Assembly (NCBI RefSeq): GCF_055900595.2
Contig: NZ_CM148325.1
DNA: 64,000 nucleotides
Reading direction: 5' to 3' (one strand)
Below are positions 14,478 to 52,770 of the stretch, one piece after another; the first letter of the stretch is position 1, and the number at the start of each line of letters is the position of its first letter. Below the pieces are notes generated by a model. It was not told the DNA's origin. It did not search any database and saw nothing but the letters and a program-made list of their open reading frames with translations. The position numbers and the translations under genes are program-made.

Positions 14478-14626
14478 AACTTTGCCTCAGGCATTAGAAA
14501 TAGCGCGTTATTGTACACGGATTAATCGCACTACAAAACAGGATCACAAACATCCTCCGCAAACAAGTATTGCAGAGTCCCTTTGTGATCGCTTTCACGG
14601 AGCATAAAAAGGGTTATCCAAAGGTC

Positions 14627-14720
14627 ATTGCACCAATATGGTGCTTAATGTTTCCATTGAAGCACTATATTGGTGCAATATTCACATCGTGGTGCAGCCC
14701 TTTTGCACGATGGTGCGCAT
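14627..14720 (+). promoter_or_regulatory. NtrC (NRI) enhancer binding sites upstream of glnA
   Basis: Repeated TGCACC-N5-GGTGCA-like dyads (tgcaccaatatggtgc, gcactatattggtgca, ggtgcagcccttttgcac). Confidence 0.7.
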
Positions 14721-16433: not shown

Positions 16434-17483
16434 ATGGCAACAGGCACGCAGCCCGATGCTGGGCAGATCCTCAACTCGCTGATTAACAGTATTTTGTTAA
16501 TTGATGACAACCTGGCGATCCATTACGCCAACCCCGCCGCACAACAACTGCTCGCTCAAAGCTCCCGCAAATTGTTTGGTACACCGTTACCGGAACTGTT
16601 GAGCTACTTCTCATTAAATATCGAGCTGATGCAAGAAAGTCTTGAGGCGGGGCAAGGTTTTACCGATAACGAAGTGACGCTGGTCATCGACGGGCGCTCG
16701 CATATCCTTTCTGTGACGGCCCAGCGTATGCCGGACGGCATGATCCTGCTGGAGATGGCACCGATGGATAACCAGCGCCGCTTAAGTCAGGAACAGCTAC
16801 AGCACGCCCAGCAGGTTGCTGCCCGTGATTTAGTGCGCGGCCTGGCGCATGAGATTAAAAATCCGCTTGGCGGTTTACGTGGCGCGGCCCAGTTGCTCAG
16901 CAAAGCATTACCTGACCCGTCACTGCTCGAATATACCAAAGTGATTATCGAACAGGCGGACCGGCTGCGAAATCTGGTCGACCGTCTGTTGGGGCCGCAG
17001 CTGCCTGGTACGCGCGTTACCGAAAGTATTCACAAAGTGGCTGAACGCGTGGTGACGTTGGTGTCGATGGAACTGCCGGACAACGTGCGGTTGATTCGTG
17101 ATTACGACCCCAGCCTGCCGGAACTGGCGCACGACCCGGATCAAATTGAACAGGTATTGCTGAATATTGTGCGCAATGCACTTCAGGCGCTGGGGCCGGA
17201 AGGTGGTGAAATCATTCTGCGTACCCGCACCGCGTTTCAACTGACTTTACACGGCGAGCGCTATCGGCTGGCGGCGCGGATTGATGTGGAAGATAACGGG
17301 CCAGGCATTCCGCCTCATTTGCAGGATACGCTGTTTTACCCGATGGTCAGCGGCCGCGAAGGTGGCACCGGGCTTGGCTTATCCATCGCCCGTAATTTGA
17401 TTGATCAGCATTCAGGCAAAATTGAATTTACCAGTTGGCCAGGTCATACCGAGTTCTCGGTTTACCTGCCTATCAGGAAATAA
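16434..17483 (+). CDS. glnL: Nitrogen regulation sensor histidine kinase NtrB
   Basis: 349-aa ORF with H-box ([11 protein letters not shown]) and ATPase motifs. Confidence 0.95.
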
Positions 17484-17494
17484 AGGTGACGTTT

Positions 17495-18904
17495 ATGCAA
17501 CGAGGGATAGTCTGGGTAGTCGATGACGATAGTTCCATCCGTTGGGTGCTTGAACGTGCGCTCGCTGGAGCAGGTTTAACCTGTACGACGTTTGAGAACG
17601 GCGCGGAAGTGCTGGAGGCGCTGGCGAGCAAAACACCGGATGTACTGCTGTCGGATATCCGTATGCCGGGAATGGACGGGCTTGCGCTGCTCAAGCAGAT
17701 TAAACAGCGCCATCCGATGCTTCCGGTCATCATTATGACCGCACATTCCGATCTGGATGCTGCCGTCAGCGCCTATCAACAAGGGGCGTTTGATTATCTG
17801 CCTAAACCATTTGATATCGACGAAGCCGTGGCGCTGGTTGAGCGCGCCATCAGCCATTATCAGGAACAGCAGCAACCGCGTAATGTTCAGCTTAACGGCC
17901 CGACGACCGATATCATCGGCGAAGCGCCAGCCATGCAGGACGTGTTCCGGATTATCGGTCGGCTTTCACGTTCTTCTATTAGTGTGCTGATTAACGGCGA
18001 GTCCGGTACCGGTAAAGAATTGGTCGCTCATGCCCTGCATCGCCACAGTCCGCGAGCCAAAGCGCCGTTTATCGCGCTGAATATGGCGGCTATCCCGAAG
18101 GATTTGATCGAATCAGAACTGTTCGGTCACGAGAAAGGCGCGTTTACCGGCGCGAATACCATTCGTCAGGGGCGTTTTGAACAGGCCGATGGCGGCACGT
18201 TATTCCTCGATGAAATTGGCGATATGCCGCTCGATGTACAGACGCGTTTGCTGCGCGTGCTGGCAGACGGTCAGTTTTATCGCGTTGGCGGTTATGCGCC
18301 GGTGAAAGTGGATGTGCGGATTATCGCTGCGACCCACCAGAATCTCGAACAGCGGGTACAGGAAGGCAAGTTCCGTGAGGATTTGTTCCACCGCCTGAAC
18401 GTTATCCGCGTTCATCTGCCGCCATTGCGCGAGCGTCGGGAAGATATTCCCCGTCTGGCACGCCATTTTTTACAGGTTGCCGCGCGCGAACTGGGCGTAG
18501 AAGCGAAGTTGCTGCATCCGGAAACCGAAGCCGCGCTGACGCGTCTGGCATGGCCGGGTAACGTGCGCCAGCTGGAAAACACCTGCCGCTGGCTAACGGT
18601 GATGGCCGCCGGGCAGGAAGTGTTGATTCAGGATTTGCCAGGCGAACTGTTTGAATCAACCGTAGCGGAAAGCCCTTCGCAATTACAGCCGGACAGTTGG
18701 GCAACGCTGTTAGCGCAGTGGGCAGACAGAGCGCTACGTTCCGGTCATCAAAACCTGCTTTCCGAAGCGCAGCCTGAGCTTGAGCGGACATTACTGACAA
18801 CCGCGTTGCGACATACGCAGGGGCATAAACAGGAAGCGGCGCGGCTACTCGGCTGGGGGCGTAACACACTGACGCGGAAGTTAAAAGAGCTGGGGATGGA
18901 GTGA
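17495..18904 (+). CDS. glnG: Nitrogen regulation response regulator NtrC (sigma-54 activator)
   Basis: 469 aa from the [12 protein letters not shown] start; receiver domain, AAA+ [14 protein letters not shown] motif and C-terminal HTH. The ORF track's upstream extension is rejected. Confidence 0.95.
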
Positions 18905-18940
18905 TTCACGGCTTGTGTGTAAAGATTGATTATTGAGCGC

Positions 18941-18968
18941 AAATTGCTGGTATTTTGCGCTTTACTGT
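18941..18968 (+). terminator. Possible weak terminator after glnG
   Basis: agcgcaaattgctggtattttgcgct hairpin followed by a T-containing stretch. Confidence 0.35.
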
Positions 18969-19015
18969 TCCGATAAGTTCAGTATGATCTTGCCCGGAAA
19001 ACGGGGAGAGTCATT

Positions 19016-19126
19016 ATGCTGGAATCAATAATTAATCTCGTATCGAGTGGCGCAGTTGACAGCCACACACCACAAACTGCTGTTGCTGCTGTTCTGTGTG
19101 CCGCGATGATTGGGCTGTTTAGCTGA
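19016..19126 (+). CDS. yshB: Small hydrophobic protein (36 aa), YshB-like
   Basis: ATG preceded by GGGGAGAG; MLESIINLVSSGAVDSHTPQTAVAAVLCAAMIGLFS; I recall a small ORF of this kind between glnG and hemN. Confidence 0.55.
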   Translation: MLESIINLVSSGAVDSHTPQTAVAAVLCAAMIGLFS

Positions 19127-19140
19127 AGCTCGTTGTTTAT

Positions 19141-19244
19141 GCCGGATGCGGAGAAAGTCGTAGGCCTGATAAGACGCGACCAGCGTCGCATCAGGCATCA
19201 TGCTCAGATGCCGGATGCAGCGTAAACGCCTTATCCGGCCTACA
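19141..19244. repeat. REP/BIME cluster
   Basis: Several gccggatgcg...cgcatccggc / gcctgataagacgcg...cgtcgcatcaggc palindromic units. Confidence 0.75.
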
Positions 19245-19354
19245 AAAGCAATAATTTCAACAGGTTTTCTTAACCAGCGCATCAAGCAATCTTGTTCTCA
19301 GCACATTGATGGCGCTTTCGTTTTCTACTTTGTAAACGAAGCGCCATTCACCAT

Positions 19355-20728
19355 TTAAATCACCCGTGAGAACTGCTGCATCCGCGCTTTCTGGCGCAGA
19401 TAGGTATCAAAGCACATGCAAATGTTGCGGATCAGCAGGCGACCTTTCGCCGTTACCTGAATCCCCTTCTCATCCACATCCACCAGCCCATCTTTTGCTA
19501 ACGGGGCGAGCAGCTTGAGATCTTCTGCAAAGTAGTCAGCGAAGAGCAAATCCCACTGTTGCTCAATAGGGGCGTAATCCAGACGGAAGTTGCAGATGAG
19601 CGACTTAATCACATCGCGGCGAATACAGTCATCACGCGTTAGCGCAATACCACGCCACAGCGCATTGCCTTGTTCATCCACTTGCTGATAGTACTGCTTC
19701 AACTCTTTCTGGTTCTGCGCGTAGCAGTCGCCAATCATGCTGATGGCGGAAACGCCCATCCCCAGCAGATCGGTATCGCCCTGAGTGGTGTAGCCCTGGA
19801 AGTTACGATGCAGCACGCCTTCACGCTGGGCCACCGCCAGCTCGTCATCCGGACGGGCAAAGTGATCCATACCGATAAACTGATAGCCCGATTGTGTCAG
19901 GAAGGCGATGGTTTCCTGCAGGATATCGAGTTTTTGCTGCGGACTCGGCAGGTCAGCATCTTTGATTTTACGCTGAGCAGCAAAAATGGTCGGCAAATGC
20001 GCGTAGTTAAAGACACTCAGGCGATCGGGGTTAAGTTCCGCCACGCGTTTCAGGGTAAAGGCGAAACTCTCCGGCGTTTGTTTCGGCAGGCCGTAAATCA
20101 GGTCGATGTTGGTGGAGGTAAAGCCAATCTCACGCGCATGGTTAAGCAGTGCAAAGATGAACTCTTCATCCTGCTCGCGGTTAACCAGACGTTGCACTTC
20201 TTTGTTGAAGTCCTGCACGCCCATGCTCAGGCGATTAAAGCCTTCGGCGCGTAAATGATCGAGTACATCCAGTTCGATTTCCCGCGGATCGACTTCGATC
20301 GAGATCTCCGCATCGGCATTGAACTGGAAGTTTTCGCGCAGCAGCTTCATCAGACGGCTGATTTGCGCTTTATTCAGATACGTCGGCGTTCCTCCGCCCC
20401 AGTGCAATTGGCTGACGTGACGCCCGGCGAACAGCGGTGCACGATGGACGATTTCTTGCTCCAGCGCGTCCAGATACTGATCGGCCTTGTGCTGCTGGCG
20501 AGTAACAATCTTATTGCAACCGCAGAAGTAACAAAGCTTATGGCAGAACGGGATATGTACGTAGAGAGATAATGGACGCTCAGGATAGCGCGCCACGGCT
20601 TGTAAAAACGCCTGTTCGCCGAAGTCTTCTGAAAACTCCAGCGCGGTTGGGTACGAGGTGTATCGTGGCCCGGAATAGTTATATTTCTGGATCAGGGCCA
20701 GATCCCAGTCGATTTGCTGTACAGACAT
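19355..20728 (-). CDS. hemN: Oxygen-independent coproporphyrinogen III oxidase (radical SAM)
   Basis: 457 aa from MSVQQIDW; YVHIPFCHKLCYFCGC radical SAM motif including the fourth Cys. Confidence 0.95.
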   Translation of the reverse strand: MSVQQIDWDLALIQKYNYSGPRYTSYPTALEFSEDFGEQAFLQAVARYPERPLSLYVHIPFCHKLCYFCGCNKIVTRQQHKADQYLDALEQEIVHRAPLFAGRHVSQLHWGGGTPTYLNKAQISRLMKLLRENFQFNADAEISIEVDPREIELDVLDHLRAEGFNRLSMGVQDFNKEVQRLVNREQDEEFIFALLNHAREIGFTSTNIDLIYGLPKQTPESFAFTLKRVAELNPDRLSVFNYAHLPTIFAAQRKIKDADLPSPQQKLDILQETIAFLTQSGYQFIGMDHFARPDDELAVAQREGVLHRNFQGYTTQGDTDLLGMGVSAISMIGDCYAQNQKELKQYYQQVDEQGNALWRGIALTRDDCIRRDVIKSLICNFRLDYAPIEQQWDLLFADYFAEDLKLLAPLAKDGLVDVDEKGIQVTAKGRLLIRNICMCFDTYLRQKARMQQFSRVI

Positions 20729-20916
20729 GCTCACTCCTTCCGATGGCGTCTCTGGCGGCTACGGCGTACCGGCGGATGCCCGTTTCGGGTCATCAACCGG
20801 TTGCGCAGCCACTTTTGTCGCCGCGACAACCGCTGTAGTTTAACGAATAACCACACCAGATAACATATAACCGGAAGGGTTATCAGCAGAACGGGAAGGC
20901 CCACGGCGGCAATCCG

Positions 20917-21426
20917 TTAGTTGCCCCGCAGCAGACGCATCATGTCTTCTTGCTTCTCGTCTTCTTCCTCTTCTTCGTCATCGTCATAAGAGAGGCCGAG
21001 TTTCTGCATCAACTCATCAATACGATCCAGTTTGGCATCCACCCAGGATTGCTCTTCGGCGCTCAGGGTTTCGCCTGCCTCCAGACGTTCCAGCAGCGCA
21101 TCCAGACGCTCATCCGTTTCCAGTAACTCCAACTCCGCCTGCGGTGAAAGCATAGGTTTCTCACTCTTCGGTTTGTGCTGTTTGGTGACTTTTTCAGTCA
21201 CGCCCAATGGAATAGGGGTTTTACTGCCAATACGTGGATCTTTCGGTGCGTTCTGGCCTTTGCTGCCTGACGTGGTGTTACCGCCCGCTGCGCGGCTGCC
21301 CGGCGCATGACCACGACGTTTTTTCTGACGCTTACGGTCACGAGCTTCCTGATCCAGCTCCTCGCGTGTTTTTCGACGCGCTTTTGCATGACCTTTGCTG
21401 CGTGAGTTTGAAGATGATGGTTTCAT
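20917..21426 (-). CDS. yihI: Der GTPase-activating protein YihI
   Basis: 169 aa from [19 protein letters not shown]; basic N-terminus and acidic C-terminus. The ORF track's upstream extension overlaps csrC and is rejected. Confidence 0.9.
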
Positions 21427-21492
21427 AATGGTTCGTCTTTTAGCCGTTTTATTCAGTATAGATTTGCGGCGGAATCTAACAGAAAGCAAGCA

Positions 21493-21737
21493 AAGAAAAA
21501 AGGCGACAGATTACTCTGTCGCCTTTTTTCCTGACTCATAACCCTTAACGGGTCTTACAATCCTTGCAGGCCGCCAACACACCCTGTTTTTCCATTAGCC
21601 GGAACAATCCGTGTTGATTCCATTTCCGTTTAATTACGTCTCCGGACGTTTGTCTTCCTGACAATCCTCTGTCTTCGCCTCCTGGCGCTCCTGACCCTCA
21701 TCCTGAGTCATTGTTCCTGTTAGCGTCCTCGCTCTAT
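21493..21737 (-). ncRNA. csrC: CsrC small RNA (CsrA-sequestering)
   Basis: - strand begins ATAGAGCGAGGACGCTAACAGG, carries many GGA motifs (AGGATGAGGGTCAGGAGCGCCAGGAGG...) and ends in the ggcgacagagtaatctgtcgcc hairpin plus T-tract. Confidence 0.8.
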
Positions 21738-22765: not shown

Positions 22766-22874
22766 TAAAAAACGCCCCAGTCATTACTGACTGGGGCGGC
22801 TAAAATATTCAGCCAAATCCGATTACGTGAAGTAAAAGGTCTGAAAGATAGAACATCTTACCTCTGTACCCTAC
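22766..22874 (-). ncRNA. spf: Spot 42 small RNA
   Basis: - strand reads GTAGGGTACAGAGGTAAGATGTTCTATCTTTCAGACC...GCCCCAGTCAGTAATGACTGGGGCGTTTTTTA, which I recognise as Spot 42 including its terminator. Confidence 0.9.
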
Positions 22875-23021
22875 GCGACTAACTTTACTCTTTTTTGTTC
22901 AGTTCAGAAAGCATTTTTTGTAATTTTTTTTCAGTTGTTGCATAGGAATTTCTAATAGCCATCACAAAACGTGACAGCTTATGTTGCTTACTTACGAAAA
23001 AAGGGCATGTTCAGGCGAATC

Positions 23022-31949: not shown

Positions 31950-32070
31950 ATGCCTGGCAGTTCCCTACTCTCGCATGGGGAGACCCCACACTACCATCGG
32001 CGCTACGGCGTTTCACTTCTGAGTTCGGCATGGGGTCAGGTGGGACCACCGCGCTAAGGCCGCCAGGCAA
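31950..32070 (-). rRNA. rrfA: 5S ribosomal RNA
   Basis: Reverse complement matches E. coli 5S rRNA (TGCCTGGCGGC...GGAACTGCCAGGCAT). Confidence 0.95.
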
Positions 32071-32162
32071 ATTCTGTTTCATCAGACCGCTTCTGCGTTC
32101 TGATTTAATCTGTATCAGGCTGAAAATCTTCTCTCAATCCGCCAAAACATCTTCGGCGTTGT

Positions 32163-35067
<2,905 letters not shown>

Positions 35068-35250
35068 TCACAACCCGAAGATGTTTCTTTCGATTCATCA
35101 TCGTGTTGCGAAAATTTGAGAGACTCACGAACAACTTTCGTTGTTCAGTGTTTCAATTTTCAGCTTGATCCAGATTTTTAAAGAGCAAAACTTCGCAGTG
35201 AACCTTTGCAGGTACACTCTGAAGTATTTTTTATTTAATCACTACAGAGA

Positions 35251-35326
35251 TGGTGGAGCTATGCGGGATCGAACCGCAGACCTCCTGCGTGCAAAGCAGG
35301 CGCTCTCCCAGCTGAGCTATAGCCCC
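35251..35326 (-). tRNA. alaT: tRNA-Ala (UGC)
   Basis: Reverse complement is GGGGCTATAGCTCAGCTGGGAGAGCGCCTGCTTTGCACGCAGGAGGTCTGCGGTTCGATCCCGCATAGCTCCACCA. Confidence 0.95.
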
Positions 35327-35368
35327 ATAACATGTAGTTAAAACCTCTTCAAATTTGCGGTGCAAATT

Positions 35369-35445
<77 letters not shown>

Positions 35446-35513
35446 GTAGAGGTTTTACTGCTCATTCTCATCAGACAATCTGTGTGAGCACTGCAAAGAA
35501 CAGTTCTTTCAGG

Positions 35514-37055
<1,542 letters not shown>

Positions 37056-50527: not shown

Positions 50528-52770
<2,243 letters not shown>

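What the first reader, a model, noticed from the sequence alone, without database searches (positions are those of the whole stretch)
19016..19126. Small 36-codon ORF with ribosome-binding site between glnG and hemN
An ATG preceded by GGGGAGAG encodes MLESIINLVSSGAVDSHTPQTAVAAVLCAAMIGLFS, with a hydrophobic C-terminal half resembling a small membrane protein. It is below the 60-aa cutoff of the ORF track and easy to miss.
Basis: partly seen in the sequence, partly recalled or inferred. Interest (0 to 1): 0.3.

Follow-up and report, generated by a model that had tools for sequence, protein, structure and literature searches.

The report
yshB, a known small-protein gene
The 36-codon ORF is real, but it is the already annotated E. 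coli gene yshB, a conserved small membrane protein first described in 2008, so the finding is correct and not new.

Summary
The ORF is exactly as described: ATG at 19016, 36 codons, TGA at 19124-19126, with GGGGAGAG at 19003-19010. It is yshB (b4686 in K-12). RefSeq annotates it as "YshB family small membrane protein", and 5425 of 5426 complete E. coli genomes match the ORF stretch. It scores 72.1 bits against the NCBIfam equivalog NF033841, whose cut-off is 34.

I compared glnG-downstream regions from 80 species. In 40 Enterobacterales species the same ORF follows glnG, always with an ATG start, in-frame indels and a conserved promoter (TTTAC[T/A], 16 nt, TATGAT). Codon-position entropy is 0.86/0.41/1.47 and median dN/dS is 0.24. 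All 11 variable sites among five Escherichia sequences are synonymous.

- ribosome-profiling-based copy number;
- the native protein seen by top-down mass spectrometry;
- cleavage of tagged YshB constructs by the intramembrane protease RseP;
- a Salmonella virulence phenotype.

The protein most likely consists of an N-terminal amphipathic helix and a C-terminal membrane anchor. Its molecular partner is unknown. Verdict: observation confirmed, interpretation supported, already known, low interest.

The parts
18935..18962 (+). Hairpin just after the glnG stop codon (GAGCGCAAA...UUUGCGCUU followed by UUUACUGUU). It is probably the glnG terminator, and its 3' side overlaps the yshB -35 element.
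   Evidence: -11.4 kcal/mol, z = -1.85 (weak). The terminator scan did not call it. Its role as terminator is inferred.
18961..18988 (+). yshB promoter: -35 TTTACT (18961-18966), 16-nt spacer, -10 TATGAT (18983-18988). The predicted transcription start is near 18995, giving a leader of about 20 nt.
   Evidence: It is the only sigma-70-like site found in 18800-19450. A loose version of the motif (-35-like hexamer, 16-18 nt, TA[TA][GCT]AT) is found in 41 of 41 yshB loci, as TTTACT or TTTACA in 37, TATGAT in 32 and a 16-nt spacer in 40. [quoted passage not shown]
19003..19010 (+). Shine-Dalgarno region GGGGAGAG, with its GGAG core 7 nt before the ATG.
   Evidence: A purine-rich GGAG, GAGG or GGGG element sits at the same place in the orthologous loci: 28 of 41 contain a canonical GGAG, GAGG or AGGA tetramer and the others contain GGGG or GGGA runs.
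19016..19126 (+). yshB coding sequence: 36 codons plus TGA. The product is YshB, MLESIINLVSSGAVDSHTPQTAVAAVLCAAMIGLFS.
   Evidence: ORF. (annotated yshB/b4686; identical protein WP_000893994.1). (NF033841, 72.1 bits against a cut-off of 34). (conservation, dN/dS 0.24, all within-Escherichia changes synonymous).
19139..19245 (.). Cluster of REP (BIME-type) palindromic elements filling the space after yshB. They probably form the structured 3' end of the yshB transcript in this strain. They are not part of the gene in other genera.
   Evidence: Inverted and direct repeats. Rfam naRNA4 (RF02564) at 19163-19240, 81.2 bits. Strong fold, -50.6 kcal/mol, z = -3.82. Copy number differs among E. coli strains and E. 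albertii. Other genera have a plain intrinsic terminator here instead.
19308..19348 (.). Conserved hairpin directly after the hemN stop codon, between the convergent genes yshB and hemN. It is probably the hemN terminator and possibly works in both directions.
   Evidence: -20.5 kcal/mol (z = -4.55) on the + strand and -19.7 kcal/mol (z = -3.60) on the - strand. It is conserved, with a few substitutions only in E. albertii, among five Escherichia sequences. It has no clear T-run on either strand and was not called by the terminator scan, so the function is inferred.

Best explanation
This is yshB, an independent one-gene transcription unit lying between the convergent genes glnG and hemN. It encodes the 36-residue protein YshB.

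Shown here:
- A conserved sigma-70-type promoter (TTTACT, 16 nt, TATGAT) lies about 27 nt upstream of the ATG, followed by a short leader with a GGAG Shine-Dalgarno sequence.
- The reading frame is maintained by purifying selection across Enterobacterales.
- The gene ends in a terminator in most genera and in a REP cluster in E. coli.

Shown by others for the identical E. coli K-12 protein:
- It is translated at high rate.
- The native protein is detectable.
- N-terminally tagged versions are cut by the inner-membrane intramembrane protease RseP.
- The Salmonella orthologue promotes intracellular replication and virulence.

Inferred mechanism: YshB folds into an N-terminal amphipathic helix (residues 2-13), a short polar linker, and a C-terminal hydrophobic helix (residues 19-35). 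The C-terminal helix anchors the protein in the inner membrane, N-terminus in the cytoplasm and C-terminus at the periplasmic face. The nearly invariant small-residue face of this helix (P19, Q20, A24, A25, C28, A29) suggests tight helix-helix packing. That packing could be with itself or, like other bacterial small membrane proteins, with a larger membrane protein whose activity or stability it modulates. RseP would limit its abundance. The partner and the cellular process in E. coli are unknown.
For: Identity:
- The product is identical to annotated yshB (WP_000893994.1, and b4686 in MG1655).
- NCBIfam NF033841 equivalog: 72.1 bits against a cut-off of 34, E = 2.4e-20.
- 5425 of 5426 complete E. 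coli genomes match the ORF stretch once, over at least 80% of its length.

Coding selection:
- 41 orthologous loci (40 further species plus the identical E. coli record L001), sampled through glnG and therefore without regard to yshB, carry the ORF 98-177 nt after glnG.
- All start with ATG, and lengths of 35-41 aa differ only by in-frame indels.
- Codon-position entropy is 0.86/0.41/1.47 bits. Median pairwise dN/dS is 0.24, and 99.7% of pairs are below 1.
- All 11 variable sites within the ORF among five Escherichia sequences are synonymous third positions.

Transcription unit:
- The promoter motif is present in 41 of 41 loci with a 16-nt spacer in 40.
- Intrinsic terminators follow the stop codon in many genera.
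- Where yshB is absent, the glnG-hemN gap shrinks from 244-454 nt to 36-97 nt in most such species, so promoter, ORF and terminator come and go as one cassette.

Not a structural RNA:
- The mRNA folds no better than shuffled sequence (z = -0.17).
- No Rfam family covers the ORF.

Protein architecture:
- AlphaFold2 with 37 sequences gives helices 2-13 and 19-35, mean pLDDT 72.7 and 84 over the C-terminal half.
- The most hydrophobic 15-residue stretch is 21-35 (Kyte-Doolittle 2.37).
- The N-terminal 11 residues have a high helical moment.
- M1, A24 and C28 are invariant. S4, P19, Q20, A25 and A29 are at least 90% conserved.

Literature:
- RseP cleavage in four assays, class I substrate (PMC10470546).
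- Top-down mass spectrometry detection (PMC12529367).
- More than 11,000 copies estimated from ribosome profiling (PMC7549839 and PMC10502375).
- Own promoter, not induced by nitrogen limitation, and the Salmonella role (PMC9731577).
Against: Nothing argues against the gene identity. Several points weaken the mechanistic part.

- The hydrophobic stretch is only about 16-17 residues, shorter than a typical transmembrane helix.
- It has no flanking residues on the C-terminal side.
- The protein has no Lys or Arg, so the positive-inside rule gives no topology.
- The RseP experiments used N-terminally tagged constructs (HA-MBP, 3xFLAG, HA-Met6), not the authentic protein. The authors themselves say cleavage of the authentic form remains to be established.
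- His-tagged YshB could not be detected after plasmid expression in one study.
- The mass spectrometry paper lists YshB separately from 'small membrane proteins'.
- No partner protein is known.
- The AlphaFold2 model has only moderate confidence.
- I could not read Hemm et al. 2008 or Bomjan et al. 2019 directly. Their content is taken from papers that cite them.
Confidence: 0.96

Rival explanations
1. It is a chance ORF in an intergenic region, not translated and without function.
For: Small ORFs are abundant: 63 ORFs of at least 20 aa overlap 17000-21500, and the window holds 169 ATG ORFs of 30-50 aa.
Against: The ORF is intact with an ATG start in 41 loci from many genera. Indels are in frame, variation is dominated by third positions, and dN/dS is 0.24. 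All 11 variable sites within Escherichia are synonymous. The promoter and Shine-Dalgarno region are conserved. Published ribosome profiling and mass spectrometry detect the product.
Confidence: 0.01
2. The roughly 150-250 nt yshB transcript acts mainly, or additionally, as a regulatory RNA (a dual-function small RNA), and the peptide is secondary.
For: The transcript is of small-RNA size. It has its own promoter, a very short leader and, in most genera, an intrinsic terminator right after the stop codon. The corresponding position after ntrBC in Pseudomonas holds a small RNA, NrsZ (PMC9731577). From memory, and not checked here, the Salmonella study came out of a small-RNA screen.
Against: The substitution pattern is that of a protein: third-position variation, and conserved amino acids with changing codons. 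The mRNA has no excess secondary structure (z = -0.17). No Rfam family matches. The most conserved nucleotides track the conserved residues of the hydrophobic helix rather than a candidate seed. An additional RNA role is not excluded by any of this.
Confidence: 0.05
3. YshB is a real protein but not an integral transmembrane protein. It would be a soluble or peripherally membrane-associated two-helix peptide.
For: The hydrophobic stretch is only about 16 residues at the very C-terminus. The summed Wimley-White octanol energy for residues 21-36 is only -2.6 kcal/mol. There are no positive charges, and the N-terminal helix is strongly amphipathic. PMC12529367 names it apart from the 'small membrane proteins'.
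Against: RseP, an intramembrane protease that cleaves within membrane-spanning segments, cuts YshB fusions in vivo at chromosomal enzyme level and in vitro with purified enzyme. In addition, further RseP-independent cleavage, which the authors place on the periplasmic side, was seen, implying that part of the fusion crosses the membrane. TMHMM or TOPCONS predicted one membrane span for all proteins chosen in that study. NCBI curators name the family a small membrane protein.
Confidence: 0.12

Closest known systems
YshB of E. coli K-12 (b4686, YP_002791260.1; NCBIfam NF033841 'YshB family small membrane protein'), first reported by Hemm et al. 2008
   Same: The amino-acid sequence is identical. 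The position between glnG and hemN, the promoter and the Shine-Dalgarno sequence are the same.
   Different: Relative to K-12 there are six synonymous nucleotide differences in the ORF, and one base differs in the upstream region (G18957 here, A in K-12). Only 8 of 5425 E. coli genomes are at least 99% identical to the window over this stretch.
Salmonella YshB (Bomjan, Zhang and Zhou 2019, J Bacteriol 201:e00314-19)
   Same: It is the orthologue at the corresponding locus, and it is reported to promote intracellular replication and virulence (cited in PMC9731577 and PMC10470546).
   Different: The phenotype was shown in Salmonella inside host cells. No equivalent role is known for E. coli. I could not read the primary paper.
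Small single-helix inner-membrane regulators of enterobacteria, such as MgrB (PhoQ inhibitor), CydX (cytochrome bd subunit) and Blr
   Same: They are similar in size, encoded by short independent genes, predicted to have a single hydrophobic helix, and were screened together as RseP substrates. This is the basis for the proposed way of working, modulation of a larger membrane protein.
   Different: There is no sequence relationship: no Pfam match and no match to any solved structure. YshB has no known partner, lacks positive charges entirely and has an unusually short hydrophobic segment.

Membership tests
YshB family small membrane protein (NCBIfam NF033841, equivalog) | Whole-protein score above the curated cut-off of the family model | tested here: met
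   72.1 bits against a cut-off of 34, E = 2.4e-20, covering residues 1-36 and profile positions 1-40 of 40.
YshB family small membrane protein (NCBIfam NF033841, equivalog) | Sequence identity with the reference E. coli K-12 YshB (b4686) | tested here: met
   RefSeq annotates the identical protein WP_000893994.1 at this locus. MG1655 has b4686 at the same place, and its DNA differs from the window only at synonymous sites.
YshB family small membrane protein (NCBIfam NF033841, equivalog) | Genomic position: same strand as and just downstream of glnG (ntrC), convergent with hemN | tested here: met
   glnG is at 17495-18904 (+), yshB at 19016-19126 (+) and hemN at 19355-20728 (-). The same order holds in 36 of the 41 yshB loci; in five no hemN was found in the stretch fetched.
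YshB family small membrane protein (NCBIfam NF033841, equivalog) | Conserved residues of the family (start M-L-E/D-S; H-T/S-P-Q-T-A; A-A-V-L-C-A in the hydrophobic helix) | tested here: met
   The window protein carries all of them. M1, A24 and C28 are invariant, and S4, P19, Q20, A25 and A29 are at least 90% conserved in 37 sequences.
YshB family small membrane protein (NCBIfam NF033841, equivalog) | The protein is actually made | not testable with these tools
   Literature on the identical K-12 protein: top-down mass spectrometry detection (PMC12529367) and a ribosome-profiling-based copy number (PMC7549839). The purifying selection measured here is indirect support.
YshB family small membrane protein (NCBIfam NF033841, equivalog) | Integration into the inner membrane | tested here: inconclusive
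   Hydropathy and AlphaFold2 give a C-terminal hydrophobic helix (residues 19-35), but only about 16 residues are strongly hydrophobic and there are no flanking charges. Literature: RseP intramembrane cleavage of tagged constructs.
Small membrane-protein regulators that bind a larger membrane protein (MgrB- or CydX-like; a functional class, not a sequence family) | A defined larger membrane-protein partner | not testable with these tools
   No partner is reported in any of the papers found with the term 'yshB'. The conserved small-residue helix face is only suggestive.

The most novel reading that the evidence does not exclude
The gene is known, but its molecular function is not. The most novel reading not excluded by my evidence concerns its fixed position in 41 loci. 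That position, between the nitrogen regulator genes glnLG and the anaerobic haem-synthesis gene hemN, might be functional rather than inherited. YshB, with its invariant membrane-embedded Cys28 and conserved His/Gln17, would then act on a membrane step linked to one of these neighbours. Examples would be handing a tetrapyrrole intermediate from HemN to the membrane-bound downstream enzyme, or binding a metal or haem ligand. A possible 42-aa counterpart at the same position in a Photobacterium (L073 3332-3460) would extend such a link beyond Enterobacterales.
Probability: 0.04. Interest if true: 0.5.

Novelty: already known. Interest (0 to 1): 0.08.

Why it matters
As a discovery it does not matter. 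yshB has been annotated in E. coli K-12 since 2008, has a curated NCBI family model, and its translation has been shown by others.

It is useful as a positive control for the scan. A reader working from raw sequence alone recovered a genuine 36-codon gene that an ORF-length cut-off hides.

The residual scientific interest is that YshB is abundant, conserved in many but not all Enterobacterales and required for Salmonella virulence. Even so, it still has no known molecular partner or mechanism.

Tried and rejected
I anchored on the C-terminal 182 aa of GlnG instead. This had the advantage of sampling loci without regard to whether yshB is present.
- The Pfam search found no family.
- A profile search of the Protein Data Bank found nothing at E up to 1.
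- Rfam, at gathering threshold and at E up to 1, found no RNA family over the ORF, only the REP-derived naRNA4 match downstream.
- Folding the mRNA showed no excess structure, so I rejected a structured-RNA reading.
- The terminator scan found no canonical terminator in 18800-19450. The hairpins listed under parts are therefore only inferred terminators.
- I could not open Hemm et al. 2008, Hemm et al. 2010, Fontaine et al. 2011 or Bomjan et al. 2019. Their findings are quoted only through papers that cite them.
- A whole-library phmmer search gave only 15 cluster representatives at E up to 1e-3, with no annotation attached. I did not pursue these.
- I looked for degraded yshB remnants in species that lack it but have a longer glnG-hemN gap (Erwinia psidii, Pantoea sp. 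1.19, Yersinia thracica, Moellerella). I found no promoter motif or recognisable frame.
- I did not run a structural similarity search, because a 36-residue two-helix model would give meaningless matches.

Full report
**1. The observation.** The window sequence at 19016-19126 on the + strand reads ATG CTG GAA ... TTT AGC TGA. GGGGAGAG occupies 19003-19010, and its GGAG core ends 7 nt before the ATG. The neighbours are glnG and hemN. Transferring RefSeq coordinates from a 100% identical E. coli record puts glnG at 17495-18904 (+) and hemN at 19355-20728 (-).

An ORF of this length is unremarkable on its own. The window holds 169 ATG-started ORFs of 30-50 aa on both strands. Only 8 have an SD-like tetramer 5-16 nt upstream, only 3 contain a 15-residue stretch with mean Kyte-Doolittle hydropathy of at least 2.0, and only one has both, which by its SD and hydrophobic stretch should be this ORF, although the script printed only the counts.

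**2. What it is.** A megablast of the region against all complete RefSeq E. coli genomes shows the ORF annotated as "yshB: YshB family small membrane protein". All but one genome (5425 of 5426) match the ORF stretch once, over at least 80% of its length. The product is WP_000893994.1 in records that differ from the window by 3.5-5% at the DNA level. In K-12 MG1655 it is b4686, YP_002791260.1. The protein scores 72.1 bits (E = 2.4e-20) against the NCBIfam equivalog NF033841 "small_YshB", whose cut-off is 34 bits. Pfam has no family for it, and no solved structure is related to it.

**3. Independent test of coding potential.** The peptide is too short for the homology tools. I therefore fetched 80 loci from 80 species using the C-terminal 182 residues of GlnG as bait. 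This samples loci without regard to yshB.

- A tblastn search and then a profile search of all small ORFs downstream of glnG found a YshB orthologue in 40 of these species.
- The genera include Escherichia, Citrobacter, Enterobacter, Kluyvera, Phytobacter, Siccibacter, Mangrovibacter, Shimwellia, Pluralibacter, Serratia, Pectobacterium, Dickeya, Hafnia, Edwardsiella, Budvicia, Mixta and some Pantoea and Erwinia.
- The ORF always lies on the glnG strand, 98-177 nt after its stop codon, and always starts with ATG.
- Lengths are 35-41 aa, and all length differences are in-frame indels in the linker between the two halves.
- Across 41 distinct coding sequences, the mean column entropy at codon positions 1, 2 and 3 is 0.86, 0.41 and 1.47 bits.
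- Median Nei-Gojobori dN/dS is 0.24 (interquartile range 0.17-0.35), and 99.7% of the 354 informative pairs are below 1.
- Within Escherichia (the window, K-12, two other E. coli strains and E. albertii), all 11 variable sites inside the ORF are synonymous third positions.

This is the signature of a translated gene under purifying selection, not of a conserved RNA or a chance ORF.

**4. Anatomy of the transcription unit.**

- *Promoter.* The only sigma-70-like site between 18800 and 19450 is TTTACT (18961-18966), a 16-nt spacer, and TATGAT (18983-18988). A loose version of this motif is present in 41 of 41 orthologous loci. It reads TTTACT or TTTACA in 37, TATGAT in 32, with a 16-nt spacer in 40 and the -10 hexamer ending 25-29 nt before the ATG in 38. 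[quoted passage not shown]
- *Upstream hairpin.* The -35 element overlaps the 3' side of a modest hairpin after glnG, presumably the glnG terminator.
- *Downstream region.* Most genera have an obvious intrinsic terminator directly after the stop codon. In E. coli this space is occupied by REP palindromes (19139-19245). They match the REP-derived Rfam family naRNA4, and their number differs among strains.
- *Presence or absence.* In Enterobacterales species without yshB, the glnG-hemN gap is mostly only 36-97 nt, against 244-454 nt in most species that have it. These species include Yersinia, Rahnella, Pseudocitrobacter, Pseudescherichia, Cedecea neteri, Rosenbergiella and some Pantoea, Erwinia and Klebsiella. 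Promoter, ORF and terminator are therefore present or absent as one cassette.
- *RNA structure.* The coding RNA folds no better than shuffled controls (z = -0.17).

**5. The protein.** YshB has no Lys or Arg, two acidic residues and one His. Its most hydrophobic 15-residue stretch is 21-35 (Kyte-Doolittle 2.37), and residues 1-11 have a high helical hydrophobic moment. AlphaFold2 with a 37-sequence alignment gives helices at 2-13 and 19-35, with mean pLDDT 72.7 overall and 84 over the C-terminal half. M1, A24 and C28 are invariant. S4, P19, Q20, A25 and A29 are at least 90% conserved. The conserved small residues lie one turn apart (A24/A25, C28/A29), which is typical of a helix-packing face. 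That reading is inference.

**6. What others have shown.**

- PMC10470546: YshB with N-terminal HA-MBP, 3xFLAG or HA-Met6 tags is cleaved by the S2P intramembrane protease RseP. This holds with overproduced enzyme, with chromosomally encoded enzyme and with purified enzyme (class I substrate). It is also clipped by an unidentified protease, which the authors place in the periplasm.
- PMC12529367: native YshB was detected by top-down proteomics.
- PMC7549839 and PMC10502375 cite Li et al. 2014 for a ribosome-profiling-based estimate of more than 11,000 copies per cell. The former also reports that His-tagged YshB was not detectable by western blot.
- PMC9731577 and PMC10470546 cite Hemm et al. 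2008 for the discovery, and Bomjan et al. 2019 for a role of the Salmonella orthologue in intracellular replication and virulence. I could not open these primary papers.
- No paper in the library reports a molecular partner.

**7. Most likely mechanism.**

- *Shown:* yshB is an independently transcribed, translated and selected small gene.
- *Inferred:* the product is tail-anchored in the inner membrane through residues 19-36, with the amphipathic N-terminal helix on the cytoplasmic side. It acts through helix-helix contacts with itself or with a larger membrane protein, and RseP limits its level.
- *Weak points:* the hydrophobic segment is short, there are no topogenic charges, and the RseP data come from tagged constructs. 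I give about 12% to the alternative that it is only peripherally associated with the membrane. I give about 5% to a significant RNA-level function of the transcript.

**8. Comparison with known systems and novelty.** The ORF passes every membership test for the YshB family that could be run here: model score, identity with the reference protein, synteny and conserved residues. It works like the class of small inner-membrane modulators (MgrB, CydX, Blr) but has no sequence relationship to them. The finding is already known.

**9. Verdict.** Interest is low (0.08). The only open question is YshB's molecular function, on which the present analysis adds descriptive points only: an almost invariant promoter architecture, cassette-like presence or absence, a conserved small-residue helix face, and a complete lack of basic residues.

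Noticed in passing
L073 3332-3460 (+), Photobacterium pectinilyticum, between glnG and hemN: A 42-aa ORF, MLESLFSFSVAMPAVSEIAANGPGHFAAGILALIAAVNMFHG, followed by a clear terminator. It sits where yshB sits in Enterobacterales, and has the same MLESL start and a C-terminal hydrophobic helix. The YshB profile scores it at only E = 1.8. It may be a distant Vibrionaceae homologue or a coincidence.
   Followed up: partly
Loci L014-L018, L024, L029-L031, L035, L041, L043, L044, L050, L052, L057, L058 (glnG-hemN gap): yshB is patchily distributed within Enterobacterales. It is absent from Yersinia, Rahnella, Pseudocitrobacter, Pseudescherichia, Cedecea neteri, Rosenbergiella and some Pantoea, Erwinia, Enterobacter and Klebsiella. 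In those the glnG-hemN gap is only 36-97 nt, so the whole cassette is missing. I could not test whether it has moved elsewhere in those genomes.
   Followed up: partly
window 19139-19245: A REP/BIME cluster lies after yshB and matches Rfam naRNA4 (RF02564, 81.2 bits on the - strand). The number of REP units at this spot differs among E. coli strains and E. albertii.
   Followed up: partly
window 18990-19130: The window's yshB allele is rare. Only 8 of 5425 E. coli genomes are at least 99% identical over this 141-nt stretch, and most are 90-96.5% identical. Yet the protein is identical, because every difference in the ORF is synonymous. That is unusually high silent divergence for an E. coli core locus.
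   Followed up: partly
window 19016-19126 (protein): YshB has no lysine or arginine at all, and its hydrophobic segment ends at the C-terminal residue. This is unusual for a small membrane protein, because topology cannot follow the positive-inside rule. Orthologues fall into a 35-38-aa class and a 40-41-aa class that differ by an indel in the inter-helix linker.
   Followed up: partly
window 19308-19348: A strong conserved hairpin lies directly after the hemN stop codon (z = -4.55 on the + strand, -3.60 on the - strand). It has no T-run on either strand and was not called by the terminator scan. It is possibly a bidirectional terminator for the convergent genes yshB and hemN.
   Followed up: partly
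window 21484-21737 (-), 22766-22884 (-), 14559-14666 (-), 52165-52416 (-): Known small RNAs found by Rfam at gathering threshold: CsrC, Spot 42, ES222 and Erse.
   Followed up: no
window 31952-37055 (-): A complete rRNA operon (16S, two spacer tRNAs, 23S, 5S), plus a StyR-44 match at 35075-35183 in the spacer just upstream of the 23S gene.
   Followed up: no
window 17435-18904 (+) and 19355-20734 (-): The mechanical ORF list starts glnG at TTG 17435 and hemN at GTG 20734. RefSeq annotation of an identical locus starts them at ATG 17495 and ATG 20728.
   Followed up: yes
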